From Candidatus Omnitrophota bacterium (GTDB lineage Bacteria > Omnitrophota > Gorgyraeia > Zapsychrales > Zapsychraceae), in NCBI GenBank assembly GCA_035292445.1, contig DATDQB010000013.1, positions 82,132 to 146,131 on the forward strand: a stretch of 64,000 bases of DNA. The letters are read 5' to 3'. This document shows, one piece after another, positions 4,794-41,726 of this stretch. How positions within the stretch are numbered: the first letter of the stretch is position 1; every line of letters begins with the position of its first letter. Below the pieces are notes generated by a model that had not been told where the DNA came from, searched no databases, and worked only from the letters and a program-made list of their open reading frames with translations. Position numbers and translations under genes: made by a program.

Positions 4794-4924
4794 AAATCCT
4801 GCCCTTTTGTGAATAGTTAATAGTAAATCGTAAATAGTACAATACACAATTAACTATTGATCATTAACTATAAACGACTATTTCTTTTTGGGATTGAATG
4901 CAGTGCTTCCGGATGGAAATGATT

Positions 4925-8000: not shown

Positions 8001-11000
8001 TAACTGATCGAAAGCTTCCTGGCCATGCTCGGCTATAAATTCTTTTACAGCAATGTCCGCCGAAATCGAATCGCCGGGATCAGGCTGTTCTCCCCAACCA
8101 AAAGCCGGGAACAACCCGTCCAATTCCTGTAATTTTGAAATGACTTTATAATCCGTAAAACCTAACTCGGACAACAATCTGGGAACCGCTTTATTGCCCG
8201 ATCCGTTAAATGCCGAAAAGCCGATTCTTAAATTACCCGCTTGTTTTTGAACAACATCATTATCAATAATAAATTTTTTGACCTGCTCCGCATGCAACGT
8301 ATGCATGTCAATTAAATTGCCCGGCCTGCTGACATCAACTCCTTTATAATCCTTACCGTCAACGGGTGTTGCTCCGCCCAGCCATATTAATCGGCCCTCA
8401 CCAGCTTCTTCTAATGCTTTTAACTTGATATCAGCTACCGTTGTAGCATTGATAGCTTTTAAAACTTCATTCTTCATGCTTTGGGGTAACTGGGCTCCCG
8501 TGTTGTTGGTAATTTTATATCCATTGTACTGGCTTGGATTATGGCTGGCTGAGATAAGAATGCCGATATCCGCCCGAACAGCTTGTGTTGTGACACCAAA
8601 AGATAATTCCGGGAACGGGCTTGCTTCATCAAACAAATAAACAGTAAATGGATAATCCTCGCTAGACTGCCCAATAAAACTTTGTGCGATCATCTCGGCA
8701 AACTGCTCACCGGCGATCCGGCTGTCAAAGCCAATGGCGACTTTATGAAATCCGTTTGCTTTCATGTAATTGATGACACCCGCGGTGTATCGTAAAAGAA
8801 CAATATCATTGATCGTATTCGGCCCCTTCAGGATACCTGCGCCGGGCCCATAGGTTTTAAGCTCACGTAATTCATCCTCCGTTAACGCCGCTAATCCCCG
8901 AATACCAGCGGTTCCGAAGACGATATTTTGCCGAAACACTTCAACTAAATCCTTCCATCGCTCTTCCTGTATCGCTTTCAGTATTGCCACCTGTGTTTGT
9001 GGAGAAATCCTCTCGATATCAGGATTCGTTGCCCAAGCTTGGAGGTTGGGAAATGTTTCAGCAAGGGCTTTATTGAATATTTCATCGGTGATCCTTCCTT
9101 CACTATGTTGTTCTCTTAAGTAGTCCTCAATGCTACCTTTTGCAGAAGCAACCACCGAATTTCGACTCACCAGCATTGCGCGATCGGGTGAAAAGATCTC
9201 AACCTCACCTTGCTGATCAATCTTTAGACTGATATTTCTTAGAATCAATCTCCCATCATCGGTTTTCTCAAAAATACCTGCATATCGAGCATCATTAAGG
9301 TCAACTATTTCTTTAAATTCACTGGCAATCGTGACACTCCCTTCCAAGACCGCTCTTTGTAAATGCACCCGGCCGGCGATGCTTAATTCATCCAAATTCG
9401 TCATATCCGTGCCATCTAAAGCCCGAATGGCATTTTCCACATCCTCATAATACGGATCCATTGCTCCAAACCCCGGAAGATGCGGCGCGGCATTGTTGAC
9501 TAAAACACCGTTTGCGGCATCCACGCTAAAATGACCGGTGTGCGCATAAAGAATATGATCAAACGCGTATTTGGTCGGGGTAAAAAAATTGGTACGGTTT
9601 TGCGGGTCAACATTAACCATATAAAGAAGCCGCTTAAAACCATATTTGTTGTCCTCCAACAAAGCGCGCACCCTCTCGTCATCGGTCGTAGTCACAAAAG
9701 CATTTAAATTTAAAAGAGCCGAACCCATGGCTCCCTCCAACTGTTTAACGCTTCGCCCCTCTTTTATTTTTGAATTACCAATCAAATCAGGCGTAACAAT
9801 CTCATTAAATTTCTCGCGGCCGATAATCTCCAACAAATCTTTTAAGAAAGGCTGAAGCACGCTGTAATTCATAACAGCGACATTGGTATTAAAAAGCTGT
9901 CCGCCAGGCTCTCCTTGCGTTAAACCCATCTCATAAAACAGCTGTTTTTGCTCGTCAGTCACTTGAGCTAATTCAAGGATTTGCGGTGCCGACTTGCCAT
10001 TAGGCAGCACTTGCCGGCCCAATTGTCCTCCCTTTTTATCCAACGGCGTTTTAGTGGTTGTAATCATAACAATAGGGATTTTATTAGTGACCATCCAGCC
10101 AATAATATAATTGTCGGGAACATTGTTGACCCCATCACCGTTATAAACGCTGCGGATTAACGCTTGGCCGTCTGTTGGTAAATCGACCGTTAAAGCGTCC
10201 TGTAAGGCCATTGAACCTAATTGCCCATGCCCGCCCGGTGCCGTAAAATCAGTGGTTAGCTCACCCGTTTCGATATCGATGACGGGTAATGAAGCCTGTT
10301 CAATCATGCGTTGGCCAAGTTCTATGCCCGGCGTTTCCTCAATCACCTGACGATAAGTTCTTCTTTGCGAAGCGGGAATAGATTGGTCGATACGGTCAAA
10401 TAGATAAATCGTTTCACCAAGAAAATGCGTCATTGGGCCGATACTCTCTTCATTAACCAACTCTTGAATAACCAAATTGGCGAATTGACCCTGTTGGGCG
10501 GCTTTAATGGCTCGAATATATTTTAATTCTGTGATGCTGACCAATTCCGTAACTGTTATGGGTTGGCCGCTTTCATCATGTCCTTGCATCTGCACTTCAA
10601 AGAATAAATCCATTGATTTGGCGCCTAACTGAGACCGTCCCGTAAGTCGCAGTAAATAATCTTTGCGTTTAACGCTCGTTCCCAAACCACCATCCATCGG
10701 ATTGGCCAAAACAATTGATTGCGCCGCGGCTTGTGCGTAGGCAGGGTTATCAGCAATTTGCGTCGTATAGCCCATTTCCCCTAATTCTTCTTTTCTTTGA
10801 TCAGAAGTCAATAAAGCAGATGGAAAAAAATTACCGCCAATCTTCAATGATTGCTCTTGTTGTGAAGAGCTTTTCGAGCGGACATATTTAGCGTAAAGAC
10901 CCGCCATATAGGAACGATCGAACCCAGCCAGGCCTAATGGGGCAACAAAGGCTTCAAATTCGGCTAGTGAAAGCATCGCCCGGTCGGTAGGAGCGCTGGC

Positions 11001-12530
11001 CTGCAATCTCTCTCTGGCCCGGCCGAGCCTTAATATATCGTTGGCAAACTGGGTAAGCTTTTCCCTGGCCTGTCTTCTGACCTGGGCATTCCCTTCACGT
11101 GTGTCTCTTTCGGCTAGCAGGGCGGCGGCTTCGATCCTGGCGGTTAATCCATCGATTTCTTCAAGGTTATAACGGTTCTCTCTTAGACCCCGCCGCTCCT
11201 GTTGTGTTAAAGTATTATCTGCCAACATCGACTGGTCGGAACCAATAGTAGCCATAGCTCCCGTTGCCCTTTGTGCCTCGGCAACACCGTTTATTCCGAC
11301 CTCGTTCAAGGCAACCGTTACGCGCTCTGTTTCTCCGTGGTCAACCACGGCGGCAACAAAATCCGTAACTCTGCCGCGCTGCTCTGGCCTTAAAACCTCC
11401 TGGCTTGCTTTAATACTCTCGAAACTCATCATCGCCCGGTCAATAACGTATCCGCCGGAGAAATATTTGCGCGGGATCACCTCTTGGGTGGCGGGGTCGT
11501 AATCTTCCTTGATATATTCATAAACGCCTGTCTTGAACGCTTCCAGATATTGGCTGTAAATCTTCTCTTTAATGGACTTATCCTCAATATCGATGCCGAC
11601 AATTTTGTTCTGGTCGACATACACTTGGCCCAAGAGGGATTCTTTCAGATTCTCCTTGAACCAGATCGCAAGAAGCAACGAATTCGTGATCTGTCTTAAG
11701 GCGGCAAAGGTCTTGCCTTCATTGACTTCCTTTTCAATTTCGGGGATCAAGACCTCGCGAACGACCTGGGAGCTGACCTCATTAATGGCCTCGACATCTT
11801 TGTTGGCCAGCATGTCGGTGCCGAACTTTTCGCTGCCGATATTCTCCTGTAACGCAACGTAATCCTCTTCCAGCATGACGCGCATGTGGCTTTCGATGAC
11901 ATACGCCGTTCCCTGATGTTCATAAATGGTCGCTTTATCCGGCAGGATCCAAACTTTATTGAAGGTGTTAACAGGAATATCTTTTGTCCCGTACAACTCA
12001 AAAGCCTTCTTGTAAACACGATCCCAGAACTCTTTGCCCAAGTCTTTTTCCGGATAGATCAATGAAGCGGTCAATTGTTTCAAGATATAATCTTGGGCCA
12101 AAAGATCGCGGCCCATCTCCGTTTGGCCGAATTTTTCCGAGATGATCCGGTTCTTTTCATAAGGGGAAAGGTTGACCCACAGCTCATCTTCGGGAACCGT
12201 TAAGGAGGCCATGAAATATTTGATGAGCTTGTTGGCCTCCATGCGTAACTCTTCGCCTTCTATCTTGTCATCACCTGTATTGACCAAAAAATCGAATTGC
12301 AAAGGATTTTCGGGATTAAGCGTTAGACCGATGATCATGGCAGGCGTATAACCCGGGCTCACGGAAACCATTGTTCCGGGTGCGGGAAGATTCAAAATGG
12401 TTTGCGGATTGATCTGGGCGAAACTGGCTTGCGGCGGAAGAATGAGGCTTGAAATAAATGAAGCGGAAATAAGAACCGAAAGGAGCTTTCTTAAAAATGA
12501 ATTTTCGCAGGTATGCAGGTACTTAAACAT
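5097..12530 (-). CDS. Giant multi-module secreted protein, paralog B (2477 aa): signal peptide, conserved N-module, UDP-sugar pyrophosphorylase-like module, phosphohexomutase module, unknown module, two CheY-like receiver domains, conserved C-module.
   Basis: A 7.4 kb uninterrupted ORF. The N-terminus MFKYLHTCENSFLRKLLSVLISASFISSLILPPQASFAQ looks like a signal peptide. UDPGP-like motifs: NPMDGGLGTSVKRKDY and ITTTKTPLDKKGGQL. Alpha-D-phosphohexomutase motifs: IVFGTAGIRG and SASHNPSQYNGYK. Two REC domains: EILLVEDNAG...ILTDLNMP...VILMSGD and RRVLVVDDEAS...VLSDIVMPDETG...KVQLMSGY. The C-terminus is VGGIDLNPALLDLQIKRDDKGIPLP...GFIPIIINVTPVTNLPLLLG. Confidence 0.85.
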   Translation of the reverse strand: MFKYLHTCENSFLRKLLSVLISASFISSLILPPQASFAQINPQTILNLPAPGTMVSVSPGYTPAMIIGLTLNPENPLQFDFLVNTGDDKIEGEELRMEANKLIKYFMASLTVPEDELWVNLSPYEKNRIISEKFGQTEMGRDLLAQDYILKQLTASLIYPEKDLGKEFWDRVYKKAFELYGTKDIPVNTFNKVWILPDKATIYEHQGTAYVIESHMRVMLEEDYVALQENIGSEKFGTDMLANKDVEAINEVSSQVVREVLIPEIEKEVNEGKTFAALRQITNSLLLAIWFKENLKESLLGQVYVDQNKIVGIDIEDKSIKEKIYSQYLEAFKTGVYEYIKEDYDPATQEVIPRKYFSGGYVIDRAMMSFESIKASQEVLRPEQRGRVTDFVAAVVDHGETERVTVALNEVGINGVAEAQRATGAMATIGSDQSMLADNTLTQQERRGLRENRYNLEEIDGLTARIEAAALLAERDTREGNAQVRRQAREKLTQFANDILRLGRARERLQASAPTDRAMLSLAEFEAFVAPLGLAGFDRSYMAGLYAKYVRSKSSSQQEQSLKIGGNFFPSALLTSDQRKEELGEMGYTTQIADNPAYAQAAAQSIVLANPMDGGLGTSVKRKDYLLRLTGRSQLGAKSMDLFFEVQMQGHDESGQPITVTELVSITELKYIRAIKAAQQGQFANLVIQELVNEESIGPMTHFLGETIYLFDRIDQSIPASQRRTYRQVIEETPGIELGQRMIEQASLPVIDIETGELTTDFTAPGGHGQLGSMALQDALTVDLPTDGQALIRSVYNGDGVNNVPDNYIIGWMVTNKIPIVMITTTKTPLDKKGGQLGRQVLPNGKSAPQILELAQVTDEQKQLFYEMGLTQGEPGGQLFNTNVAVMNYSVLQPFLKDLLEIIGREKFNEIVTPDLIGNSKIKEGRSVKQLEGAMGSALLNLNAFVTTTDDERVRALLEDNKYGFKRLLYMVNVDPQNRTNFFTPTKYAFDHILYAHTGHFSVDAANGVLVNNAAPHLPGFGAMDPYYEDVENAIRALDGTDMTNLDELSIAGRVHLQRAVLEGSVTIASEFKEIVDLNDARYAGIFEKTDDGRLILRNISLKIDQQGEVEIFSPDRAMLVSRNSVVASAKGSIEDYLREQHSEGRITDEIFNKALAETFPNLQAWATNPDIERISPQTQVAILKAIQEERWKDLVEVFRQNIVFGTAGIRGLAALTEDELRELKTYGPGAGILKGPNTINDIVLLRYTAGVINYMKANGFHKVAIGFDSRIAGEQFAEMIAQSFIGQSSEDYPFTVYLFDEASPFPELSFGVTTQAVRADIGILISASHNPSQYNGYKITNNTGAQLPQSMKNEVLKAINATTVADIKLKALEEAGEGRLIWLGGATPVDGKDYKGVDVSRPGNLIDMHTLHAEQVKKFIIDNDVVQKQAGNLRIGFSAFNGSGNKAVPRLLSELGFTDYKVISKLQELDGLFPAFGWGEQPDPGDSISADIAVKEFIAEHGQEAFDQLDVLIGTDPDADRLGLIVKVPESQQQLFGKYRLLSANDLWTLLTWYRLMRKKELGLLENPQQHFVSLSHVTTDAIEEVAALFGVQALGEMLDVTGKENRGDYLSGRRAWVGMTYQAQYAERMRERGLTNEGSQEESNGYSIMGGPVAEGEILADDGHVNDKDGVFAGILALEVAAYAKERGTMIFELLDDIYMQIGHYATANKPLPRVGSFEGAEGITEKIKLLRKAQEWMQEANARAQTDNPWVLSGQRIIGAVEFKSGRYDAQHYEGFPDEGIRFFLDDEALEPGVPFTNSRNHITIRPSGTSQAIRFYTQITSNVTKEGIAEQKSQNFGLAERLALQAQVLLLSATDITKYIPMVETQLEALSSDVSTDSQVADAAMIGDQDFERARKLRATFYGVGVQDVPEVREQLLRFADIMKQYIAADRVLRGQTRGDRGAQKSSIENVYTKVSDIALDAQIQDDELLTTISEATRELESMDIQNVTEANLSVLRRPVELLNIRFIVKAYSEMVKKMGVILAQLGEELPLKEAVIPDSILVEREGVLRAVNERREFYVSHVGGRAFVYPIVFIIDVRQQTHFYYFDRDGNQRSVSGDSAMAAEVFGSADQAMVTGEILLVEDNAGLREDFKEMLEGLGYRVVVAQDGKIALDIIRANPTRFAGILTDLNMPRISGIALTRALADLRVADVNFPNIPVILMSGDFGAGDTASKELYRQAASPGDIKRVISKDEAFGETLRGFIEADFVHGDNAMVTRRVLVVDDEASVGNVARRILERAGYQVTVVSSAAEAREQLSQQEFVLVLSDIVMPDETGFSLADHVVRNHPGIKVQLMSGYYEGAPSAEVAGSSDYLGILAKPFTIVQLKGAVEGAIGPADGAQLAQDQGPVGGIDLNPALLDLQIKRDDKGIPLPMNQQPIQQMHIEGFIPIIINVTPVTNLPLLLGLGGEEEENEFGLNPDVQAKEPEKVSLLN

Positions 12531-12843
12531 AGATAATCTTTATCTAATATTAATATTAATTAAATTTAGAGGTTAATAAAAGTCTATCATAAGAATATAT
12601 AAAATCAAGCTTGGATAGGCCAATAATTTATTATAAGATATTGATATTAAATGAGTTATGTATTGACTAAAAATTTTTGCCTTAAAAACCTAATTGTCCC
12701 CTGAGCTTGCTTCATGGCACTCCGCTATCATTCAAAGCCGATCTTCGATGCACCTGCAATCCTATGCAAAAAGCAAATCATCCTTTACATCAAAAAAAAT
12801 GTCTGGTAATATGAGTCGCCGTTAAGAAAATTTCGTTAATTAA

Positions 12844-12918
12844 CGTCCCTGTAGCTCAGGTTGGATAGAGCATTTGCCTTCTAAGCAAAGGGTCGCACGT
12901 TCGAATCGTGCCAGGGAC
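12844..12918 (+). tRNA. tRNA-Arg (anticodon TCT)
   Basis: Clean cloverleaf: acceptor GTCCCTG/CAGGGAC, D-arm GCTC-AGGTTGGATA-GAGC, anticodon stem TTTGC/GCAAA with loop CTTCTAA (anticodon TCT), T-arm GCACG-TTCGAAT-CGTGC, discriminator A. CCA is not encoded. Confidence 0.85.
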
Positions 12919-12999
12919 ATTCTTTCTTAGTATATGCTATGCCCTGCCCCGACGCGCTATTACATAGCGGTCGGGGTCCCGACCGAGGTGAAACCGAGC

Positions 13000-13074
13000 G
13001 TCGGGATAGCTCAGGTTGGATAGAGCATTTGCCTTCTAAGCAAAGGGTCGCACGTTCGAATCGTCCCGGGGTCA
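13000..13074 (+). pseudogene. Degenerate tRNA-Arg-like copy. Its 57-nt core (D-arm to T-arm) is identical to the upstream tRNA-Arg, but its acceptor-stem strands (GTCGGGA ... CGGGGTC) cannot pair and its T-stem has one mismatch.
   Basis: The core TAGCTCAGGTTGGATAGAGCATTTGCCTTCTAAGCAAAGGGTCGCACGTTCGAATCGT is repeated exactly. The 5' strand GTCGGGA instead pairs with the upstream TCCCGAC to form a separate hairpin. I could not fold a canonical cloverleaf. Confidence 0.5.
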
Positions 13075-13086
13075 TTTTCTTTAACC

Positions 13087-14058
13087 ATGAAGATAAAACC
13101 CATCTATCGATTCTTTATATGGCTCGCCTTCATCGGCCTCGTTATCCTGGCCTTCCTGGCCTATTACTTCCAGAACCATGAAAAAGACCTCTTCCTTGCC
13201 GCCCTGCGGTCTTCTCTCGACCAAGGCATCAGCGCTTCCGATGTCGATTATGATTTCCCCTTCGGGTTCAGCTTGGATGACTTCCAGATCGAAGGCGTCG
13301 TTCAGGCAAAAAAATTAAGCGCCCAGCTTGACCCGCGTTCTTTCATAGAAAAAAAGATCATCCTTAGCCAGATGACCCTTCACCAGCCTATTATCACCTG
13401 GCGTAAAGAAAAAAAGGCGGCCGCTATCGCGGAAAATCAAAATGTTTCCAACGGGCCTTCGGTTGGCACCCCGAAAACGATCCCCCAGGAGGCATCAAAA
13501 CTTATTATCAAGCAGCTGCGCATAAAAAACGGCCGTTTCCATTTTGCCGATGAATCGGCCATCCCGGCCCTTTCCTTTAAGCTGGATAATCTCCAGATGA
13601 AAATCGAAGACCTTATTTTTCCGCTGTCTCCAACGGCAACCACCTTTCAATTGAAAGCCAATCTGATCAAAGAAAACGCCCCGGTTTCGGGCAGCGTTGT
13701 GCAAAGTAACGGCTGGATCGATCTGGCCAAAAAAGACCTGGATGGAACTCTTCTTATCATTGAATCGGACGGTAAGACCGGCTTAAGCGCCCATGCGATC
13801 TCAAAAAACAACGATTTAAACGTCGAAGGCAAGATCAAGGCGCAAAACTTGTTCAAACAGTCCGGCGAAAATCCATTGGAGACGACTGTGGATAATATCG
13901 TCCTTAACACCTTATCGAATATGGGCATCGAGATCGGTGCAAGTTTTTCCTTTAATACCAAACTCGATGATTTTCGCATCGAACAGATCTCTTTCTCAGG
14001 AAGCGTCTCCACTCATGAGGTTCCCGCAACCGAGCCGATGAATCCTGTTGCGCCGTAG
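13087..14058 (+). CDS. Membrane protein with an AsmA-family-like N-terminal region (323 aa): one N-terminal TM helix, then a periplasmic beta-rich region.
   Basis: The N-terminus MKIKPIYRFFIWLAFIGLVILAFLAYYF is a single TM helix. The architecture resembles the start of the 1033-aa AsmA-like protein at 31606. The gene is on the opposite strand to the giant genes and sits just after the tRNA-Arg pair. Confidence 0.55.
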   Translation: MKIKPIYRFFIWLAFIGLVILAFLAYYFQNHEKDLFLAALRSSLDQGISASDVDYDFPFGFSLDDFQIEGVVQAKKLSAQLDPRSFIEKKIILSQMTLHQPIITWRKEKKAAAIAENQNVSNGPSVGTPKTIPQEASKLIIKQLRIKNGRFHFADESAIPALSFKLDNLQMKIEDLIFPLSPTATTFQLKANLIKENAPVSGSVVQSNGWIDLAKKDLDGTLLIIESDGKTGLSAHAISKNNDLNVEGKIKAQNLFKQSGENPLETTVDNIVLNTLSNMGIEIGASFSFNTKLDDFRIEQISFSGSVSTHEVPATEPMNPVAP

Positions 14059-14172
14059 GGAATTTGTGATAGAATTCTGAACGTTAGTTGGTGGGTGCCC
14101 TGACTTCTCTTTAAAAAAATTATGGTAGTCAGGACTACCACCATTTTCTCTAAAATTTAAATTGTGGTAAAT

Positions 14173-14250
14173 GGTGGGTGTAGCGCAGCTGGTTAGCGCA
14201 CAAGATTGTGGATCTTGTGGTCGCGGGTTCGAATCCCGTCACCCACCCCA
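14173..14250 (+). tRNA. tRNA-His (anticodon GTG) with genomically encoded G-1 and 3' CCA
   Basis: G-1, then acceptor GTGGGTG/CACCCAC, discriminator C, CCA encoded. D-arm GCGC-AGCTGGTTA-GCGC. Anticodon stem CAAGA/TCTTG with loop TTGTGGA (anticodon GTG). T-arm GCGGG-TTCGAAT-CCCGT with one G-U pair. Confidence 0.85.
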
Positions 14251-14386
14251 TATTAAAAATCCCAAGACACAAGATACAAAAAAACCAAACAATATCCAAA
14301 TTTCAATATTCAATTTCCAAACAGTTTGGTCATTTGAATTTGTAATTTTGTATTTGTTTGTATCTTGTTTCTTGTATCTTGGAAAT

Positions 14387-14423
14387 TAAAAAGGCGGTCT
14401 CCTTACGGAAACCGCCTTTTTTG
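14387..14423. terminator. Bidirectional rho-independent terminator serving tRNA-His (plus strand) and giant gene C (minus strand)
   Basis: AAAAAGGCGGTCTCCTTACGGAAACCGCCTTTTTT: a 6-bp GC stem (GGCGGT/ACCGCC) flanked by an A-run upstream and a T-run downstream. Confidence 0.7.
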
Positions 14424-14588
14424 CATTGCTTCTTAACCTACCGTGGCAGAGTTTTAAGGTGCTGCCCCTTGCCACCTTATTACCCACGGAGAATTTAAGA
14501 AGGTGCCCCACATTCGTTTGCGTCCTTCGTCACTCTTCCTTCGTCCATCGTGACACGATTAACGAAGGACGATAGACGAGGGACGAAC

Positions 14589-17500
14589 TTATCCTTTAAA
14601 TATCGCTATCCTATCCAACACATCCCTCAGCGTGAACTTGCGCATCGAAAGCGCTGGCGCTTTCTCTTCCTCATCCTGTGCCTGCTCGATCGGTTCATCC
14701 GGAATAAAATCTGCGATTCCCAACAGCATCGGCATATTATTGATCGGCGCGATGTTAATGATCACGGGAATAAACCCGTCAATATGAATATTTTGCAGCG
14801 GTTGCATCTCAACCGGCAGCGGAATGCCGCGGCCGTCGCGCTTAATTTGCAGGTTAAGAAGCGCCGGGTTCAAATCAATACCGCCGACCGGCGTTGTTTC
14901 TTGAGCTGTTACAGCTCTATCAATGCCGGCCGATGATGAGACGTCCTCTTCCTCTGAAGGAAAGTTGACAATTAATTGACCTTCCAAAAATTCACGGATA
15001 ATCCTTCTAAATTTAATCTCCCGCACCTTAAAATCTCTTGCCGAGTTTATGTGGGTTGCTCTTGTCAGATCTCCTTTTGAATAAAGATCCGGCGCATCTT
15101 CGCTTAGCGGGGTGCTCAATTCTTTACCATCAAGATAATGGATCAACCGGGCGAGGAGCCCGACGCGATCGCCAAATAATTCTTCATCGCCCATTTCTTC
15201 CAGTAAATCCTCGGCGATCTCCCAAGCTTCCGCAGGCGTCAGCATCGCGCCGTCGCCCTGCTCCGTCATGGCGGCATCGATGCTGACAATTGTATGATCG
15301 ACTTCCACCGGGAAGATCTCGGCTTTCAGTTCATTTCCAACGTTATAAATCTTAATCACCACGGATGTTTGGCCGCCTTCCGTTGCCTGCGTTCCAGTTT
15401 GACCAAAAACCCAATCATTGGCTATGACAGTAAAAATACCAACAACATCGCCTTTTACATCTTGTTCCGTAAAAAATTTTTGCCCATTAAGAATTGCTCC
15501 GGCATCACCATAGCTTTCCCGTATAACACGAAGCTCGGATGCCTCAGCTAACTTAAAATTATAGCGTTCGGAAAGGTCAGGCAATTCTTCTCCAGCAGCG
15601 TTTTTATTCATTTTGGCGTTATAAACCCGAACCCCGGCCACAGCGCCGATATATTTTGCGGCACCGGCAATCGCTAAGTTCATAAATCCTTCGGCCGAAC
15701 CGCCAACGGTTATAACTGTTTTGTGGACACCATAAGAACGCCCTGTTGCGGCCTCATAAAGAGCCGGTGTTAACGTCGCCCTTAACCCATGTGCAACAGT
15801 TCCATCCTGAAGCGTCTTTTGAACAACGCTCACACCTTGTATTCCATATTCTTGCTTAACCTCTTCAATGGCTCGTACAAAAGCAGTTTCTCGTTTACGG
15901 TTCATCACGATAATCTCTTCCTGAACTTGCGAGAGTTCTTGTCTACGAATAGCGGCCAAAAACTTAAGGTACGCCAAAATGCCTTCTTTAGGGTGAGCCG
16001 CATATAATTCAGGATCGTAAAGATGGTATTTTTCCCCACCCACTTCAACAGCGGCTGCCCTTAACGCGTCGGCATCTTCACCCACATTCGTAATAAACTG
16101 ATGAACGTATCCATCGGGGACGTTTCCTAAATCGCGCACACCGCGCCCGACAACAATATCGCTATTGGCTCCCGCCTCATTTTCCGGAGCTTCCTCCAAG
16201 GATCTGTTGCCAGAATTGGTGACAAACTGATTAGTCCCTTCGACCACGTCGATAATGGCATCAAGAATCGGATAATACCGGCCATTTTCGCTTAGGTAGA
16301 ATTCATCGCCACGGTCAATGGCCGCTTTAATGGCTTCGACTTCGTGTTGGATCAAGTTAGGCATAATGACTTCATTGGATTTTAAGCTTTCCGCCACTTC
16401 ATCCCGGCCGAAACCTTCGGAAACACGAACCATCATAATGATACCCAGTTCTTTGATAGTCCGTTCAAAAATCCTTTTGGCGAAACCATCGACCACATCT
16501 GTAATGGCCGTTTGCATTCTTTTTAATTCATCTTTGGCAATGGTTCCTTCTTTCCCCAAAACCATTATTGCTACTTCCGCAAATTCGCCCCTTTGCGTCG
16601 TTTGATGAAGTTGAGTAAATAACAATGCGATCTGCGTCCGCTGCTCAGATGTATCAGAGACACTTTTAACAACATCTAAAATTTTTTGATAAGCACCTCG
16701 TAAACCAAGAGCGGTTAATTTGGCGGCCGTGTGTGTTGTCAATATAACAGGCAACTCATCACGAATGGCGCGTAATCTCGTTGCTTCTTCTTTGTTTGGC
16801 TGTGCCGCCATCGCGGCGTCAAAATCCCTAATCATCTGCCCTAACTGTTCATTATCAATGTTGACCTGGACCATCCGGCCATAAACATCAACACGGGCAA
16901 CGAAGGCCTCAACGCCGATGCGCTCAATTAACGCATCGTACTCATCCATGACACCTAAGCTGGCTGCCTGGATCCTGAAGGAGGCGCGGACGAACTCGTT
17001 CTGCGCCGCTTGTTCGTTAACAAAATCCCCATTAAGGACCGTTAAAGCGGTCTCCTTGGAAGCCCTAGAGAAGGAAGCAGCATAGCGCCAAGGCGCTCCC
17101 ACCCGCTTCGCTTCTTTCACAATGGCATTTAAATTGCGGGCCGCCTGATCAGCGGTCTGCCCCCCTGATAAAAAGACAATCGTGCCTAATTCCGGAGGAA
17201 GACTATCCATATGCACGGCAACAGTCGCTCTAGCCACTTCTTCGGGTGTATCTTTAGGCGCTTTATCACCCGAGGTGACCATGCTCACTTTAATCGCGCT
17301 GCCTTTCAAATCAACCCCTAGGCGGCTGGCGGCTTCCGTATAAACCTTAAGAATACGCCTGTTCGCCTCTGCGCTGGCTTCAATATCATGAGAGCCTTTA
17401 ATCAACACCTCTGGCTCAGGCGTTGGGACCCTTCCTAATAACTGAACATCTAAAACATGTTGGGCCAACATCTCCATATTCGCTTCGATATTACGTTGCG

Positions 17501-20500
17501 TCGGAAGACCAGCATCTGTATCAATCGTAAATGTTTGACGGAATTTATCGGCATGAGATGTGGGTATCATATCCATAATCGCACGAAGGTTATCGATCCC
17601 CAAACCTTTTGGTTTAGAGAGCTTCTCGGGATCAAGGCCTTCACGGCTTGGCCGAGGGCTCTGTGTATCATCATCGATACCCCGATCAGTTTTATGGATA
17701 ATGCTTATCCCTCTTCCTTCCACGTGGGTGGCTAAAAGAGGCTTGTCTTCATCATCCACATAGCTGACGGATTCATCCTGGACAATAATGCCGCCAAAGA
17801 CATACTGGATGCCTGGGGCGGTATAGAACATCCTTCTCATTCTTTCGCGAAGAAGATAGTTCGCGCCGTCGACTTTATCAGCATCCGGATAAGCCTTTGC
17901 ATCCACTATCTTAAAACCGTATCTTTTAAGAAGTGCATTGCCTGTTGATGGAGACCCATCCGAAGCAAAGTAGTTACGGCCTCGCCCCGTCAGGCTTTGT
18001 ACTCTTTCACGAAGAAGGGTTTTTTGGACATCCGTCAACATCGCGTGATCTTCGTCTTCCGGGGGGTATTCCGAAATTGGTCTAGGCGGTAACACCTGGG
18101 TAGCGCCTGTGTCTAAATCATCTACTTCTTCCTGTTCTCCATCGACTACGGTGCCTACAGGGTTGGGGTCGCGGTTAATTTCATCCATTACTTGGAGCAA
18201 GCCTAAACCTAAACCTGAATTGACAATCAATGCTATAACGTCATCTTCACTACTCTCTCCCAATGAAAGAAGTCGATCATAGGCATCCTTGACCATGATT
18301 CTTCCAGCTAATAAATCTTCCAGAATTCGGTCAGCCGCCATCATGGCGCTGTCGCCAGAAAGCAATTGCTCACCCTGACCAATAAGACGATTGATTCGAG
18401 CTCTTTTTTCATTAAGCTCGGATGATCCCAATTCATCCGATAATTGGCCTATCTCCAAAAGAATCGCCCTTTGTCCAGCTCTCAATATATAGAGTTCGTT
18501 CTCGATGTCTTGTGCCGGTTCGGGATAAAAGGTTTCAGGTGCAGCGAAGCGCTCCTCAATGTGATCAAGGCTGACATCCTCCAAGGGAAAAGCGACCTCA
18601 TCTGCTCCTTCCAAAGGCCTGATGCGACTGATCGCTCTCTTGAGCAACCCTTCTATCGTATGTCGGTCGGTTGTAAGTTGGGCTATCTGTTGCGCAATTG
18701 AACTTCTTTCCTCTGGTCCATCTTTGAGGCTACGCTCCCTGGTCCTTAATTGTGTAATACGGGTTCTTACGCCTATCAAGGAAATTCGCAATTTGTTGAT
18801 AAGATCCGCCAATTCATTAACAGACAGATCATGTTGTAACGCCGTTTCTTTTTCTGCAATCTGTCTATGTATTTCTCCCATTAAATCATCTTTGGCTTTT
18901 AATCCGGCCCGGTCTTTCATGGTATCGCCTTTACCACCCTCAAATGATATGGCGGCAGTTTCCCCTATAGCAACCGATGTCATGAATTCCAGCCCTCTGT
19001 TGCCGGCAAAAACCTGCGGGTTGATCGACATGCCGCTTTTTTGCTTACGGCCGATCTCTTGCCACTGGGCCAGCCCGTCCATACCGTCCCTTAAATATCC
19101 CCCTTTACCGTCAGTCCCTTGCAAAAACTGCATGGTAGCGGCGTGTAGGAATGTGGATCCGCCGTAGGTGATAAAATTGAACTGGGAATATTTTCCCTGT
19201 TCCGGCAGAAATGCCTTTCTTTCTTCCGGCGTCATTAGACGACTCCCATCCTCGGTTTTGGCAAGCGGCCAATAAAAGGACGGCGACGTGTTATTTGCTT
19301 TTATTCTGGTTGTCGCATCCAGTAAACCCACGGCATCATCATGAGCTAGGTCTAACTCTTGAAGCGCTTTTAAGGCATATGAATAACTGTCCGGATCAAC
19401 TGGCCGGTTATTGTGATATGTTTCGATAATTTTCTCTACCTGAGTTTTAATTCGATCTCGAAAAGCCTGATCAAATCTTTCAAGAATTTCGTCATACCAG
19501 CCTTCGGCAAACAATAAGCGTCTGGCTTCCGCATCCAGGGCGGTTGACCACTGCTTGACTTCGCCAATATGCGGATGGTGCTGCTCAAACCAAGAAATGT
19601 CCGTATATGGCAAGGCTGATTTGGAACGGGCAATGGCCATTTCCATGCCGCTATTGATCATCCAAATGGTACGGCTTCTCTTCTCTACCGAACGGGTGAG
19701 CTGGAAATCCCATAATACGTTGATCGTGCCTGAGAAAGCTTCAGGCGCTTCATCCACCAACTGGATTTGACTGCTGTCGATGAGGCGAATTCCGATCTCT
19801 CTGGCCTTTGCTTTTACCAGATCGAAAAATCTTACGTCTCTTTCATAAGGTATAGCCGCAACAAAAGCTCTCCATTCTTCAACCGTCATACCAATCTTAT
19901 CCTGATTTGCGGCGATAGTTCTTGCCACAATTTCATCGATCGTCAAAAGATTGGCCATGATCTTCCATTGATTATGGACCTTTTGTAATTCGGAAGCCTC
20001 TAGCCCTGATTGATTGGCAGCCGTGATAACATCTTGATAGGTTTGGACCCTACCTTTGCTATCGTGAATCAAAGGTATATACTTCTGCCAGTCAGATCTA
20101 AACCGGGTGATTGTTGCCGCTATCTTTTCAGCCGGCATTTTTTTGGCAACCAGGTCTTTTTCCAATGCTTTGACTGCTTCTTCCAGACGTTCAGCTTCAT
20201 CGGCCTCAGTAACACCAAGAATAAATTTCTGATCACGTCCGTCATCATGGCCCGTGATCCATTCGGCCGATTCGGCATCGGTCCGGGCAACGATCAACGT
20301 ATTAAGACCCATGCGGTCAAACTCAAAACGGGCCTCAAGAAGTGTTTTGATCCAATGATCCGTACTATCGAGGACTTTGCCGCTCATATGCCCGCACATT
20401 TTACATCCGTGAGCTTGATCTTCAATGTGGACTGCGGCGATATGTGTTTCTTCCTCGCCCATTGACAGAACCCTTCGTGCCATCTCCTGGACCTTTAAAT

Positions 20501-23500
20501 GTCCTTCGTCAAAATCAACAAAGATAGGCACGTAGAAATCAACCGGTCTAACAAGAGAACGTTGTTCAGGCGTCATTTGGGCCCTGGCGATCTCCTGATA
20601 AATGGCATGCCATGTATTTAGCTTTGAGATCCTGGCAGCCAGTATACCCAAATAATCATATTGGTCCCGGGCACGGTCTCCTTTGCCTCTGAGCATTTGT
20701 GCATCCCATCCACCCAGATAATAGCCTTCAATATGCTTAAACAAATTCTGTTGCAGAAGAGCGAATATAATGCCGGATCTTTCTTTGAAAGCGTCATCGA
20801 TCCTTTCGTAATATTCCTGCTTTACATTCTCCATCATGGAGAACGAATCCTGAATAACACCCGTTTCAGCATCGATGAAGCCTAATGATGCTAAATGATT
20901 ATACAGGGCATCAACTTCATAATCATAAGCCACATCTAATAATTTTGTCTTTGTGATAGGTTCGGCTTGAAGAATTTCGGATACAGCCATGGCTTCGGCC
21001 ATCAATTCATTGCTAGGGCCGAAGGTATCGATGGATTTTACATCCCTGAAATACCTTCGCAGCTTGCCATTAAATTTCTCGGCCATATGGTTGGCGATCG
21101 ACCATGTTCTTAAAACAGGGCCTTGCGCAGCCGCGACTTTTTCTGCGCTCCAAACACGCTTGATCCAGCGGCCTTCGGCTCTTTGCTGGTTCCATCGCTC
21201 CTGCATGATTTGCGCTCGTTCTTCTAAAGAAGCCACCATCGCCGCATCGCCGCCCATGCGGGCAACCATGCCGCCTTCAGGTCCGGGTATATTCATCTGG
21301 GCAACTAACGCTTCATATCGCGCCAACACTTCAGGGCTAAGCGCCCCTGTGAAACGCTCTTTCCCCACCTCGATCATAGCCCACACGTCTCTTAATCGGC
21401 TTGAAACTGTCCCTTTCACATCTCCAAAGGTCGGCACCTCGTTATAGCGTTCTTCAGGATCTCTGGAACGGGCCCATTCCTCATCATTCTTGTCTTTTAT
21501 TTTTTCCCATCTTTTAATTAATCCCGCCAATTCATCTGGAAGTCTGGCAAGTTGCTCGATAGCCGATTTTCTATCCACACGATTGAGCTTATCGACACTC
21601 ACCTCTTTGCCTAAAAGAGCCGCTAAAAACGCTAATTCTTTCTCAGCCCTATCAAGATCCGCTTCTACTTGCGCTTCATACATCCCGCCTGGAAGCGCTC
21701 TGTCATATTGCGCTTTAAATCCTGCGACGCTCTGTAATAACCAATTAAAATACTCCTCGGCAACGGCCCTAGCATCCACCGCCATCGCCGCGTCACCTTC
21801 TTTGGGAGTTCCCTTCTGATCTCTCTCCCTCAATGACGCTATTATACCTCTCATATGTTTTTCAGAAGCAGCGGGTTCTTCCGGTACTAACTCACCACTT
21901 AAAGGATCTCCCCTGACAAACCTGGGTCCAAGTTCCGGCGCCCTATCTTTATCGCTGGCCGCCATCGCCGCGGCTGAAGTTAGTGAAGTTATCCTTTCCC
22001 GTATCTCTCGAATGGCCAGTTCGGTTTGTTCCTTTTCACCTTCCAGCCCCTCGACAATGACGACCTGATCTTGATATTCCACTAATTCATTTCCAATTTG
22101 TCCTAAACGCTTTTCCAGTTCTGCGATGGCACCTCGAAGCTCATCCGCCGTTCGGTATCCTTCCTCGCTGGTAAGAACGGCTTCTAAAATCCTGACCGCC
22201 CCCATCGCATTATCAATGCTGTCATCCCATTGCGCTCTTGTCCGATCAATTGTTTCCTCAAGCACTCTTTCCTCTTCCAATAAAGACGGTAAATCACCAA
22301 TGTCTCCATCTTCATATTTTGCTTTTTCTATTCTTTCTCTAACTTGAGCAAGTCGATCAATCGCGCGAAACCATTCTTTTTGGGCAGACTCATCCCCCAC
22401 CATCGCCGCGTCGATTGGTTCTTGAGAAGTCCCGCCTCTTTTTCCAAGGTGACCCATTTTTTTACGTTGAGTAAAAAGTATATCCCCTGCCGCGGCGTCA
22501 ACGGCCCGAAACATATTATCAAATGTTTCCCCATAAGCTAATTCGGCGATACGATGAGGATCCATCCGTAATTTATCCAATCTTTCAAATCCAACACTGT
22601 CCAAATTTTGTAGAATACTCGATTCAGGATAGTAGCTTCTTCTTCGCGAGTCATCGAAATCGGCTATTTTACTCAAAATATAACTGTTAGAAGCCTCTTC
22701 ACTTTGTAATCGATCTCTGAATCGGTATAAGACCCTCCTTCGCTCTGGCTCCATTAAACTTAAATAATCTAACGCCCTTGTAACTTTATCTCTTAACTGT
22801 AAATCATCAAACTGGGAAACAAAACGTTTTGCATTCTTCGGAAATTGATTACTAATACGCATAGCCCGAAAGTCTAGGGAAATCATACCTTCAATGACCG
22901 AATAGTCCTCAATCCTATCCAAAAGGATCCGTGTTGAGAAATAATCAGACAGGATCATAGCTTCAAAGATATCGGCATCCCTGTATCTTTCTGTTACCGC
23001 CATCGCCGCGTCGGTTTCCGCCACAGAGACAACCGTCTTTTCAACAAGTCTTTCTAAAGTCTCCGTAACTTCTTTAATTTTGCGTTGCAGGGGTCCTATT
23101 TTATCTTGATCATAAGCGGCAAGGGTTCTGAAGCTCAAAACGTCACCGGAACTGCGAGGTATTAAGATTCGGTAAAAGGTCTGAATCGCTTCTTGGGCTG
23201 TCGTTAAAGGTACATTTTGACCGCCTGAATCTCGAATGGCCCTTTGAAGCGTTTGAATCATCTCCAACAACCCAACCCCTTCTTCTCTGATTCTAGCGTC
23301 TTCAAAAGCTACTACCATTTCTTTAAGTTCTTCCAATTGCGCCGCCACCATCGCCGCGTCACCTTCTTTGGGAGTTCCCTTCTGATCTCTCTCCCTCAAT
23401 GACGCTATCATGTCTGTCATATGTTCTATAGAAGCAGGTTCTTCAGGTACTATCTCACCAGTTAAAGAATCTCTCCTGGCAACCCTGGGCCCCAATTCCG

Positions 23501-31268: not shown

Positions 31269-31440
31269 TCCACCAGTCCTCGTTTATAGAAAACAATTCT
31301 TTTTTCTGGGAGGATTCACAAGAACCTTATCGTGGCAATGATTTTCTATGGTGTAAATATAACATTATTAATAATTACTGTCAATGAGGCCATCAGAGGC
31401 GGCGCCATAGAAAGATCGAGGACGAATATTATTTAAATGG

Positions 31441-31514
31441 TCGGGGCGGGGGGATTCGAACCCACGACCCCTTGCTCCCAAAGCAAGTGCGCTAGCCAGC
31501 TGCGCTACGCCCCG
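31441..31514 (-). tRNA. tRNA-Pro (anticodon TGG)
   Basis: The reverse complement folds with acceptor CGGGGCG/CGCCCCG, D-arm GCGC-AGCTGGCTA-GCGC, anticodon stem CTTGC/GCAAG with loop TTTGGGA (anticodon TGG) and a T-loop TTCGAAT. The T-stem has one non-Watson-Crick pair. Confidence 0.8.
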
Positions 31515-31605
31515 TTATATTTTTTGAATAGTGGCGCTTAGTATATCATTGGGTTTTGAAATTTGCAATTACTGTAAAATTACCCACTTATGCTATAATA
31601 CCGCC

Positions 31606-41608: not shown

Positions 41609-41726
41609 AATAGTACTATTCAAATTAATATTTATGGAAAGTAGTGCCCCTATTTTTATACAAGGAAAGAAAACTGTCAAGCTTCATTTAAGAATCCCCC
41701 TTTAAAACGCCTTTAATCCGAGCGGT

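What the first reader, a model, noticed from the sequence alone, without database searches (positions are those of the whole stretch)
14589..14760. Shared ~55-aa C-terminal module (GGIDLN...GFIP.IIN..P) on three of the giant proteins
Genes B (5097..~5330), C (14589..~14760) and D (27900..~28090) end with GGIDLN(P/M)A(L/M)L(N/D)L.(I/V).R.G.G(I/V)..., then a hydrophobic GF(I/E)P(V/I)I(I/T).. stretch near the C-terminus. A conserved extreme C-terminal cap on secreted proteins with variable cargo recalls C-terminal sorting signals (T9SS CTD, PEP-CTERM, GlyGly-CTERM), but it matches none that I know. It could be a new sorting or anchoring tag, or an oligomerisation module.
Basis: seen in the sequence. 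Interest (0 to 1): 0.75.

Follow-up and report, generated by a model that had tools for sequence, protein, structure and literature searches.

The report
Conserved end-cap of Omnitrophota giant enzyme proteins
The shared tail is a real, undescribed 57-residue domain that ends thousands of exported, multi-enzyme giant proteins of the uncultured phylum Omnitrophota, and it always comes paired with an equally undescribed N-terminal domain.

Summary
Genes B, C and D, all on the minus strand, end with an ungapped 57-aa module: GGIDLN..L.L....R.G.G...GF.P.I...LG. A variable, mostly acidic tail follows it. The fourth tandem gene, A, runs off the window, and its database full length (4030 aa) carries the module too.

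- **Spread:** a profile of the module finds 5422 cluster representatives (2595 at E<=1e-10). The module is C-terminal in all 150 listed. Every named source is Omnitrophota or a probable mis-binning.
- **No known match:** Pfam, NCBIfam and PDB sequences give nothing.
- **Not a portable tag:** essentially every intact carrier also starts with a Sec-type signal peptide and a conserved ~320-aa N-terminal domain. That domain has no fold relative in the PDB.
- **Cargo:** between the two ends lie variable modules. Here they are PPDK, malate synthase, isocitrate lyase, aldolase, UDP-glucose pyrophosphorylase, phosphoglucomutase and receiver domains. Short lineage-specific separators (DxAM here, ASSPV elsewhere) divide them.
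- **Not sortase-type:** there is no sortase-like tripartite signal and no conserved neighbouring sortase or transporter.

AlphaFold places the first half of the module confidently only beside a well-modelled N-domain. My best reading is a terminal docking or clasp domain. The mechanism remains inferred.

The parts
14715..14885 (-). C-terminal module of gene C (aa 4235-4291): GGIDLNPALLNLQIKRDGRGIPLPVEMQPLQNIHIDGFIPVIINIAPINNMPMLLGI
   Evidence: (E 5e-35)
14592..14714 (-). Variable acidic tail of gene C (41 aa) after the module. It lacks the terminal ..S.LN motif.
5181..5351 (-). C-terminal module of gene B (aa 2394-2450)
   Evidence: (E 5e-36)
5100..5180 (-). Acidic tail of gene B. It ends in KEPEKVSLLN, the extreme C-terminal mini-motif shared by about 24% of family tails.
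27909..28079 (-). Divergent C-terminal module of gene D (aa 1064-1120), followed by only 2 residues
   Evidence: (E 8e-22)
14589..27587 (-). Gene C (4332 aa, HLF18321.1): signal peptide + N-domain, then malate synthase, isocitrate lyase, class I FBP aldolase and unassigned modules, then the C-module. Contains 15 DxAM separators.
5097..12530 (-). Gene B (2477 aa, HLF18319.1): signal peptide + N-domain, then UDP-glucose pyrophosphorylase, phosphoglucomutase and two receiver domains, then the C-module. Contains 8 DxAM separators.
27900..31268 (-). Gene D (1122 aa, HLF18322.1): signal peptide + N-domain, about 650 aa of helical non-enzymatic cargo, then a divergent C-module
3..4793 (-). Gene A, first 1597 aa of HLF18318.1 (4030 aa): signal peptide + N-domain, AprA-like methyltransferase, PPDK. 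Its C-module lies outside the window.
26508..27587 (-). Signal peptide (aa 1-38, ..VYA|Q) and conserved N-terminal domain (aa 39-360) of gene C. Equivalent regions: B 11451..12530, D 30189..31268, A 3723..4793.
13087..14058 (+). DUF748/AsmA-like gene between B and C. A homologue lies next to family genes in 5 of 60 other loci, which is a weak association.
31531..34632 (+). AsmA/DUF748/YhdP-like gene (1033 aa) upstream of D. A homologue lies next to a family gene in one other locus (L030).

Best explanation
The module is the C-terminal end-cap domain of an Omnitrophota-specific family of Sec-exported, modular giant proteins.

Every member is built the same way: signal peptide, a ~320-aa N-terminal domain of unknown fold, one to many cargo modules (often ordinary metabolic enzymes) divided by short lineage-specific separator motifs, the 57-aa C-module, and a variable acidic tail.

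I propose that the C-module works as a docking or clasp element. Its first half (GGIDLN..LLxLQIKRD) would add beta-strands to the family's own N-terminal domain. This could happen within one molecule, closing the cargo into a loop. It could also happen between molecules, joining family members head to tail into an assembly at the cell envelope. On this reading it marks and fixes the end of the polyprotein and is not a sortase-type sorting signal.

**Shown:** the domain exists, its position, its conservation, its spread, its strict coupling to the N-domain, and the absence of known-family matches.
**Inferred:** the docking itself, cis versus trans, and the cellular location.
For: **Module identity**
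- Ungapped 57 aa in B, C and D and present in A's full length.
- About 25 positions are >90% conserved across 171 tails, although the cargo is unrelated.
- 5422 representatives at E<=1e-3 and 2595 at E<=1e-10. The module is C-terminal in all 150 listed, in proteins of up to 5808 aa.

**Taxonomy**
- All 59 genomic loci are Omnitrophota MAGs or MAGs provisionally labelled Planctomycetales.
- The window itself is an Omnitrophota MAG.

**Coupling to the N-domain**
- 48 of 52 long representatives carry both.
- In nearly every locus ORF that carries the module and has an intact 5' end, the N-domain is present (L058 is unresolved). Tandem arrays of 2-4 genes are common.

**Export signal**
- Rule-based check on 127 N-termini: n-region net charge +3.3, hydrophobic h-region, and [AVSG]-x-A|Q with A at -1 in 120/126.

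**Structure prediction**
- A 642-aa natural member was modelled with a 149-row alignment.
- The N-domain has pLDDT 85-97 and the cargo <50.
- Module residues 581-590 reach pLDDT 93, with strands at 579-581 and 588-593. Residues 621-630 reach 78.
- The module is flanked by disorder, so this is the pattern expected for a segment packed against the folded N-domain.

**Separators**
- They delimit the N-domain, the cargo modules and, in other family members, the C-module: in the window, gene C has DxAM about 120 aa upstream of GGIDLN and gene B has none directly upstream. This fits a family of discrete modules with dedicated end modules.
Against: - I could not see model coordinates or PAE, so contact between the module and the N-domain is inferred from pLDDT alone.
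- Mutual information between N-domain and C-module columns over 106 members was not above the within-domain background.
- A profile-profile comparison found no relationship between the two ends.
- Some N-domain proteins on long contigs appear to lack the module (P0211, P0246, P0237), so the N-domain can exist without it.
- The second half of the module (GFxPVIINVTPVxNLPLLLG) is hydrophobic, about 1.6 mean Kyte-Doolittle over 21 residues by my hand calculation. It could instead contact a membrane.
Confidence: 0.4

Rival explanations
1. It is a true secretion or sorting signal, working like the T9SS C-terminal domain. A dedicated machinery encoded elsewhere in the genome would recognise it, take the periplasmic intermediate across or onto the outer membrane, and possibly cleave the module off.
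For: - Extreme C-terminal position in all 150 listed carriers.
- All carriers have Sec signal peptides.
- Cargo is highly variable.
- Very high conservation suggests one common recognition partner.
- A further conserved terminal mini-motif..KAREPE.IS.LN-COOH, in about 24% of tails suggests that a free C-terminus is read.
- Secretin genes lie within 10 kb in the window and in 2-3 other loci.
Against: - No HMM match to Por_Secre_tail, PEP-CTERM, GlyGly-CTERM, LPXTG or any NCBIfam sorting domain.
- No conserved neighbour gene in more than 6 of 60 loci.
- A general sorting tag should occur on proteins without the N-domain, and it practically never does.
Confidence: 0.25
2. It is a membrane anchor or translocator. 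Its four or five amphipathic, proline-punctuated beta-strands would oligomerise into, or insert beside, an outer-membrane beta-structure, as the short C-terminal anchor of trimeric autotransporters does. Alternatively the hydrophobic GFxPVIINVTPVxNLPLLLG stretch spans a membrane. Either way the cargo would be displayed as a surface coat.
For: - Alternating hydrophobic and polar pattern in LDLQIKR, VPLPL and MxIxGF, plus a 21-residue hydrophobic stretch (sequence).
- AsmA/DUF748-like genes, whose family includes TamB of the autotransporter assembly module (my own knowledge), flank the genes in the window and in 5 other loci.
- Omnitrophota giant proteins have been proposed to form a cell coat (PMC10066038).
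Against: - No match to YadA_anchor or any autotransporter model.
- The chain does not end in an aromatic beta-signal. Asn is the commonest last residue and the tail is acidic.
- Gene D's module replaces the hydrophobic stretch with the charged PVITRVERD.
- The AsmA association is weak, 5 of 60 loci.
- In the model only two short strands form.
Confidence: 0.15
3. It takes part in polyprotein processing. It could be the recognition or activating element for the protease that cuts at the DxAM or ASSPV separators, or a plug that keeps the enzymes inactive until cleavage.
For: - Separators are 8- to 16-fold enriched over shuffles (8, 15 and 1 observed versus 0.5, 1.2 and 0.3 expected).
- They are the top repeated 4-mers in many members, differ between lineages, and usually precede the module by 10-25 residues.
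- Post-translational cleavage of Omnitrophota giant proteins has already been proposed (bioRxiv 10.1101/2023.11.21.568195).
Against: - No protease domain was detected in the frame or in conserved neighbours.
- Cleavage at the separators is itself unproven.
- Nothing links the module specifically to proteolysis.
Confidence: 0.1
4. It has no function of its own. It is simply the inherited tail of one much-duplicated ancestral gene.
For: - All carriers belong to one family, as defined by the shared N-domain.
- The four window genes are tandem paralogues.
Against: - The cargo between the ends has been replaced many times, yet the module keeps about 25 positions at >90% identity across a phylum and never shifts from the C-terminus.
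- That is strong purifying selection on the module itself.
Confidence: 0.05

Closest known systems
Multi-enzyme giant proteins of Omnitrophota (West-Roberts et al. 2023 preprint, 10.1101/2023.11.21.568195; 2026 preprint 10.64898/2026.06.07.730766)
   Same: - Same phylum.
- Long ORFs tiled with metabolic and regulatory Pfam domains (PGM, receiver, PPDK, methyltransferase).
- Mostly with signal peptides, and post-translational cleavage has been suspected.
   Different: - Those studies treat proteins of >=10-30 kaa.
- In the text I could search, they do not describe a shared N-terminal domain, a shared C-terminal module or separator motifs. 'Linker' and 'polyprotein' occur 0 times, and 'C-terminal' only in other contexts.
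- The proteins here are 0.5-5.8 kaa.
T9SS C-terminal sorting domain (Por_Secre_tail, PF18962 / TIGR04183)
   Same: - A conserved, beta-rich C-terminal domain of tens of residues.
- Found on Sec-signal-bearing proteins with diverse cargo.
   Different: - No HMM match.
- Different phylum.
- T9SS substrates share no N-terminal domain.
- Here an acidic tail follows the module.
- One family member (probably P0143) carries a Por_Secre_tail match; a CTD-like stretch lies in the middle of P0143, not at its end.
Sortase-type tripartite signals (LPXTG, PEP-CTERM, GlyGly-CTERM, PGF-CTERM)
   Same: - C-terminal position on secreted proteins.
- A Gly-Gly at the start, as in GlyGly-CTERM.
   Different: - 57 conserved residues instead of a 3-6 residue motif.
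- No plain TM helix and an acidic rather than basic tail.
- No NCBIfam hit.
- No sortase, exosortase or rhombosortase neighbour.
MARTX toxins (my own knowledge)
   Same: - Giant exported proteins.
- Conserved N- and C-terminal regions frame a variable, recombining array of effector modules, which are released by cleavage at inter-module linkers.
   Different: - MARTX proteins use T1SS and have no Sec signal peptide.
- Their ends are glycine-rich repeats and they carry their own cysteine protease domain.
- There is no sequence similarity.
- The cargo here is central-metabolism enzymes.
Dockerin modules of cellulosomal enzymes (PF00404)
   Same: - A short conserved C-terminal module that attaches many different enzymes to a common partner.
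- Dockerin-bearing giants exist in Omnitrophota.
   Different: - No HMM match.
- No duplicated Ca-binding loop-helix.
- The likely partner is the protein family's own N-domain, not a cohesin scaffold.

Membership tests
T9SS C-terminal domain | Match to Por_Secre_tail (PF18962) / TIGR04183-type models at the C-terminus | tested here: not met
   Pfam at E<=10 on the isolated tails and NCBIfam on the full proteins gave no hit.
T9SS C-terminal domain | Genome encodes T9SS core components (PorK/L/M/N, SprA, PorU/V) | not testable with these tools
   Only 64 kb of the genome is available, and none of these genes is in the window.
Sortase-type tripartite sorting signals (LPXTG, PEP-CTERM, GlyGly-CTERM and the like) | Short signature motif, then a hydrophobic TM helix, then a basic cluster at the very end | tested here: not met
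   The conserved region is 57 aa. The hydrophobic stretch holds 3 conserved Pro and 2 Asn. The tail has net charge about -0.10 per residue.
Sortase-type tripartite sorting signals (LPXTG, PEP-CTERM, GlyGly-CTERM and the like) | NCBIfam/TIGRFAM sorting-domain model match and a cognate sortase gene | tested here: not met
   No NCBIfam hit. No conserved neighbour within 10 kb in 60 loci. A gene elsewhere in the genome could not be tested.
T1SS / RTX substrates | No N-terminal signal peptide, GGxGxD nonapeptide repeats, ABC/MFP genes nearby | tested here: not met
   A Sec-type signal peptide is present in 127 N-termini. No RTX Pfam hit. No ABC/HlyD genes in the window.
Trimeric autotransporter anchor (YadA_anchor) | PF03895 match and a C-terminal aromatic beta-signal | tested here: not met
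   No Pfam hit. The commonest last residue is Asn (65/234), and an acidic tail follows the module.
Dockerin | PF00404 match (duplicated Ca-binding segment) | tested here: not met
   No hit at E<=10.
Omnitrophota multi-enzyme long proteins (as described in the 2023 and 2026 preprints) | Omnitrophota origin, and several unrelated enzyme or regulatory Pfam domains in one ORF | tested here: met
   NCBI names and loci give the taxonomy. Pfam finds UDPGP + PGM + 2 receivers in B, MS + ICL + FBA in C, and methyltransferase + PPDK in A.
Omnitrophota multi-enzyme long proteins (as described in the 2023 and 2026 preprints) | Signal peptide and/or TM segments | tested here: met
   Rule-based signal-peptide features. 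No SignalP or DeepTMHMM was available.
Omnitrophota multi-enzyme long proteins (as described in the 2023 and 2026 preprints) | Length >=10,000 aa (the catalogue threshold of the 2026 preprint) | tested here: not met
   The window genes are 1122-4332 aa, and the largest family member seen is 5808 aa.

The most novel reading that the evidence does not exclude
Omnitrophota export whole blocks of central metabolism as framed polyproteins. In this window these are pyruvate phosphate dikinase, the glyoxylate shunt, gluconeogenesis and UDP-glucose synthesis. The undescribed N-domain and the C-module would together form a delivery or assembly device, and the separators would be cleavage sites. The enzymes would then work outside the producer's cytoplasm, either inside a prey or host cell (a MARTX-like logic with metabolic 'effectors') or in an extracytoplasmic metabolic compartment.
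Probability: 0.12. Interest if true: 0.9.

Novelty: new variant of a known kind. Interest (0 to 1): 0.68.

Why it matters
Omnitrophota are abundant, uncultured and probably host-dependent nanobacteria. Their giant genes are a recognised puzzle.

This finding shows that a large share of their long proteins (thousands of clusters) belong to one frame with two undescribed terminal domains and recurring separator motifs. That gives three practical gains:
- It provides handles for cutting these proteins informatically into modules.
- It allows a search of existing metaproteomes for processing sites.
- It opens an experimental question: why do enzymes that need cytoplasmic cofactors (acetyl-CoA, ATP, UTP) carry Sec signal peptides?

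Two new domain families could be defined at once, the N-domain (no fold relative in the PDB) and the C-module.

Tried and rejected
- **Plus-strand reading** of the given coordinates gave nonsense; the genes are on the minus strand.
- **Motif literature searches** (GGIDL, WVNLSPYE, QIKRDG and others) gave only irrelevant papers.
- **Sequence libraries** (Pfam, NCBIfam, PDB sequences) gave nothing for either end, even at E<=10.
- **First homologue search** with the tails returned only 58-113-aa proteins. These are fragments of frameshifted or fragmented giant genes, not stand-alone genes (L001 has a 4-bp overlap after a 2176-aa ORF; L002 is a 2x nanopore assembly).
- **Internal translation starts at DxAM:** the nucleotide context shows no consistent Shine-Dalgarno sequence, and other lineages use ASSPV, which has no Met. 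Rejected.
- **The C-module as a copy of the N-domain's first strand** (GFIPIII versus GYTPAMI): hhalign probability 0.1%. Rejected as evidence.
- **Covariation** between the two ends was inconclusive.
- **Conserved-neighbour search:** the top clusters are antisense shadow ORFs of the conserved ends, and no real neighbour occurs in more than 6 of 60 loci.
- **Fold searches:**
  - The gene D model was too poor to use (mean pLDDT 52).
  - Several ClyA-family pore-forming toxins appear among the non-significant Foldseek hits (TM about 0.1). I treat this as a lead only.
  - The afdb50 library was unavailable.
Full report
**1. The observation**

The three genes lie on the minus strand: B at 5097..12530, C at 14589..27587 and D at 27900..31268. 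The minus strand shows the reported motif.

In each gene the module is an ungapped 57 residues from GGIDLN to LLG[LI]:
- B: aa 2394-2450 = 5181..5351
- C: aa 4235-4291 = 14715..14885
- D: aa 1064-1120 = 27909..28079

Tails of 27, 41 and 2 residues follow.

In the 65-aa stretches aligned, C is 63% and D 33% identical to B, with 18 invariant positions. A profile built from database copies hits only these three ORFs in the six-frame translation of the window (E 5e-36, 5e-35, 8e-22; next best 0.2).

**2.

All three proteins also share a signal peptide and a ~320-aa N-terminal domain, 48-56% identical over the first 450 aa aligned.

A fourth minus-strand ORF, 3..4853, runs off the left edge and has the same N-domain. 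From its start codon at 4793 it is 100% identical over 1597 aa to HLF18318.1/P0101. That protein is 4030 aa long and ends with ...VGGIDLNPALLDLQIKRDSYGVPLPLNQQPIMEMQIEGFLPVIINVTPIHNLPLLLGL...KLSYLN. So four tandem paralogues (D, C, B, A in the direction of transcription) all have both ends.

NCBI records assign the source to a Candidatus Omnitrophota MAG.

The cargo between the ends is as follows:

| Gene | Cargo |
|---|---|
| A | AprA-like methyltransferase, pyruvate phosphate dikinase |
| B | UDP-glucose pyrophosphorylase, phosphoglucomutase, two receiver domains |
| C | malate synthase, isocitrate lyase (KMCGH active-site motif present in the sequence), class I fructose-bisphosphate aldolase |
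| D | about 650 aa of helical, non-enzymatic sequence |

**3. Spread of the module**

An exhaustive HMMER search was run with a 50-sequence profile against 1.84 billion cluster representatives.
- It found 5422 proteins at E<=1e-3 and 2595 at E<=1e-10.
- In all 150 listed, the match ends a few to about 100 residues before the C-terminus (mostly under 30).
- Carriers range up to 5808 aa.

Across 171 tails the consensus is GGIDLNPALLDLQIKRDGNGVPLPLxQQPIxxMxIxGFxPVIINITPVxNLPLLLG.
- About 25 positions exceed 90% conservation.
- A net-acidic tail follows, with a median of 33 residues.
- About 24% of unique tails end in a second mini-motif..KAREPE.(I/V)S.LN-COOH. Asn is the last residue in 65 of 234. 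Genes A and B have this motif.
- A divergent subtype also exists: GGIDFNANNxNLKEQGxK...G(I/L)xPVIINITP.

A scan of one genome per species found 59 loci. All are MAGs labelled Candidatus Omnitrophota/Omnitrophica, Ca. Aceula, unclassified 'bacterium', or the provisional 'uncultured Planctomycetales'. Several genomes hold many copies.

**4. It is one end of a frame, not a portable tag**

- Of 52 representatives of >=1000 aa that carry the module, 48 have the N-domain at their N-terminus. At least one of the other four (P0093) does not start with Met and so is cut at a contig edge; the rest begin inside cargo sequence and may be fragments.
- In the genomic loci, nearly every module-bearing ORF with an intact 5' end also has the N-domain (L058, below, is unresolved). 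Tandem arrays of 2-4 genes are common.
- The short 'proteins' from the first search are pieces of frameshifted or fragmented giant genes.
- Two odd cases remain. L040 has an orphan fragment with no start codon. L058 has a 959-aa ORF at a contig start.
- The reverse coupling is weaker. A search with the N-domain found 1435 proteins at E<=1e-10, and a few on long contigs seem to lack the module.
- Short complete members of 549-650 aa, with little cargo, also exist.

**5. Signal peptide**

Across 127 N-termini I found the following:
- a positively charged n-region (mean +3.3, positive in 97%)
- a hydrophobic h-region (mean Kyte-Doolittle 2.26 over 15 residues)
- a c-region of [A/V/S/G]-x-A|Q, with Ala at -1 in 120 of 126 and Gln at +1 in 109

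This fits the -3/-1 rule for signal peptidase I. That rule is established knowledge; no SignalP run was possible. Export of enzymes that need acetyl-CoA, ATP or UTP is therefore predicted, and it remains unexplained.

**6. Separators**

- D-x-[AS]-M occurs 8, 15 and 1 times in B, C and D. Shuffles predict 0.5, 1.2 and 0.3.
- The motif sits just after the N-domain and between cargo modules; in other family members a separator also lies 10-25 residues before the C-module, whereas here gene C's last DxAM is about 120 aa upstream of GGIDLN and gene B has none directly upstream.
- In an unbiased 4-mer count it is the top repeated word in many members. DAAM occurs 11 times in P0119. Other lineages use ASSP/SSPV (7-8 times in P0085) or D[AS]A[AVS].
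- This is the pattern expected of processing sites that co-evolve with a protease. Cleavage is not shown.

**7. Comparison with known families**

- No Pfam, NCBIfam or PDB-sequence match exists for either end.
- The module lacks the motif/TM-helix/basic-tail layout of sortase-type signals.
- It does not end in an aromatic beta-signal.
- It sits on proteins with Sec signal peptides, unlike T1SS substrates.
- No neighbouring gene is conserved in more than 6 of 60 loci. A small DUF748/AsmA-like gene recurs in 5.
- The rest of the window holds housekeeping genes, a secretin, an amidase and an Rce1-like CPBP protease with TPR repeats.
- Two preprints describe multi-enzyme giant proteins in Omnitrophota and suspect cleavage. 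In the text I could search, neither mentions a shared terminal frame or separators.

**8. Structure**

- **Gene D** (26-row alignment) gave a poor model. Mean pLDDT was 52, the N-domain was at 60-80 and the module below 45. It had no fold matches.
- **P0291**, a natural 642-aa member modelled with a 149-row alignment, gave mean pLDDT 71 and pTM 0.64.
  - The N-domain (residues about 41-400) is at pLDDT 85-97. It is an alpha/beta domain with long helices and three beta-hairpins.
  - The cargo is below 50.
  - Module residues 581-590 (DLNSAMLALQ) reach 93, with strands at 579-581 and 588-593.
  - Residues 621-630 reach 78.
- A short segment modelled this confidently between disordered stretches is most simply explained by packing onto the folded N-domain. 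I could not inspect coordinates or PAE, so this is an inference.
- Foldseek gave no E<=0.001. ClyA-type toxins recur among the non-significant hits.
- The N-domain therefore has no detectable relative among solved structures.

**9. Verdict**

The module is a real, phylum-wide, undescribed C-terminal domain. It is best described as the end-cap of a two-ended frame that carries exchangeable cargo.

My preferred mechanism is docking to the N-domain, either in cis as a clasp or in trans as head-to-tail assembly (confidence about 0.4). The rivals are:
- a secretion signal read by machinery encoded elsewhere (0.25)
- a membrane anchor (0.15)
- a role in processing (0.1)
- a functionless inherited tail (0.05)

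The module is new and terminal, but it is not a portable sorting tag, and no sortase-like partner was found.

Noticed in passing
window 5097..27587 (-), e.g. gene C aa 365, 627, 1281, 1410, 1526, 1726, 1932, 2114, 3079, 3590, 4104: Short separator motif D-x-[AS]-M between all modules: 8, 15 and 1 copies in B, C and D versus 0.5, 1.2 and 0.3 expected. Other lineages of the family use ASSP(V/I) or D[AS]A[AVS] instead. These look like polyprotein processing sites.
   Followed up: partly
window 5100..5138 (-) and the C-terminus of P0101 (= gene A, outside the window): Extreme C-terminal mini-motif ..(K/R)E(P/V)E.(V/L)S.LN-COOH, about 25-35 aa after the module. It is present in about 24% of family tails, and Asn is the last residue in 65 of 234.
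   Followed up: partly
[not shown]
   Followed up: partly
window genes A-C taken together: The cargo enzymes form a coherent route: PPDK, malate synthase and isocitrate lyase (glyoxylate shunt), class I FBP aldolase, phosphoglucomutase, UDP-glucose pyrophosphorylase. This runs from C2/C3 compounds to UDP-glucose, and all enzymes sit behind Sec-type signal peptides.
   Followed up: no
window 12845..12919 (+), 14174..14250 (+), 31438..31514 (-): tRNA-Arg(TCT), tRNA-His(GTG) and tRNA-Pro(TGG) lie between the giant genes. The tRNA-Arg region is 96% identical to a stretch in locus L027 that lies between a family gene and a DUF748 gene.
   Followed up: partly
window 13087..14058 (+) and 31531..34632 (+): Two AsmA/DUF748-like genes are interleaved with the giant genes on the opposite strand. 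The small one recurs beside family genes in 5 other loci.
   Followed up: partly
window 41727..43037 (-) and 40049..41680 (-): An Rce1-like CPBP intramembrane protease fused to TPR repeats, next to a secretin gene, lies about 9-14 kb from gene D. The protease is a candidate processing enzyme, but it is not conserved next to family genes.
   Followed up: no
window 47005..47987 (+): A vitamin-K-dependent gamma-carboxylase-like protein (HTTM plus lumenal domain) is split into two overlapping ORFs. This may be a frameshift or a split gene.
   Followed up: no
P0143 (family member, 1502 aa), internal: One of the 26 members scanned carries a Por_Secre_tail (T9SS CTD) match (the scan did not say which). 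P0143 has a CTD-like stretch in mid-protein followed by a DHAM separator, as if a whole secreted protein had been captured as a module.
   Followed up: no
L040:9989-10297 and L001/L012:6678-6920: An orphan module fragment with no start codon lies downstream of trp and DAHP-synthase genes (L040). An 80-aa module ORF overlaps the end of a 2176-aa FBPase+PGM ORF by 4 bp (L001). These are likely a relic and a frameshift, respectively.
   Followed up: partly
window 27900..31268 (-) and L014, L032, L049, L053: Proteins of about 1050-1130 aa with a weaker (divergent) C-module match recur inside tandem arrays in other genomes. By size they resemble gene D; their cargo was not examined, so orthology is a guess. 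Gene D could be a conserved structural member of the system.
   Followed up: no
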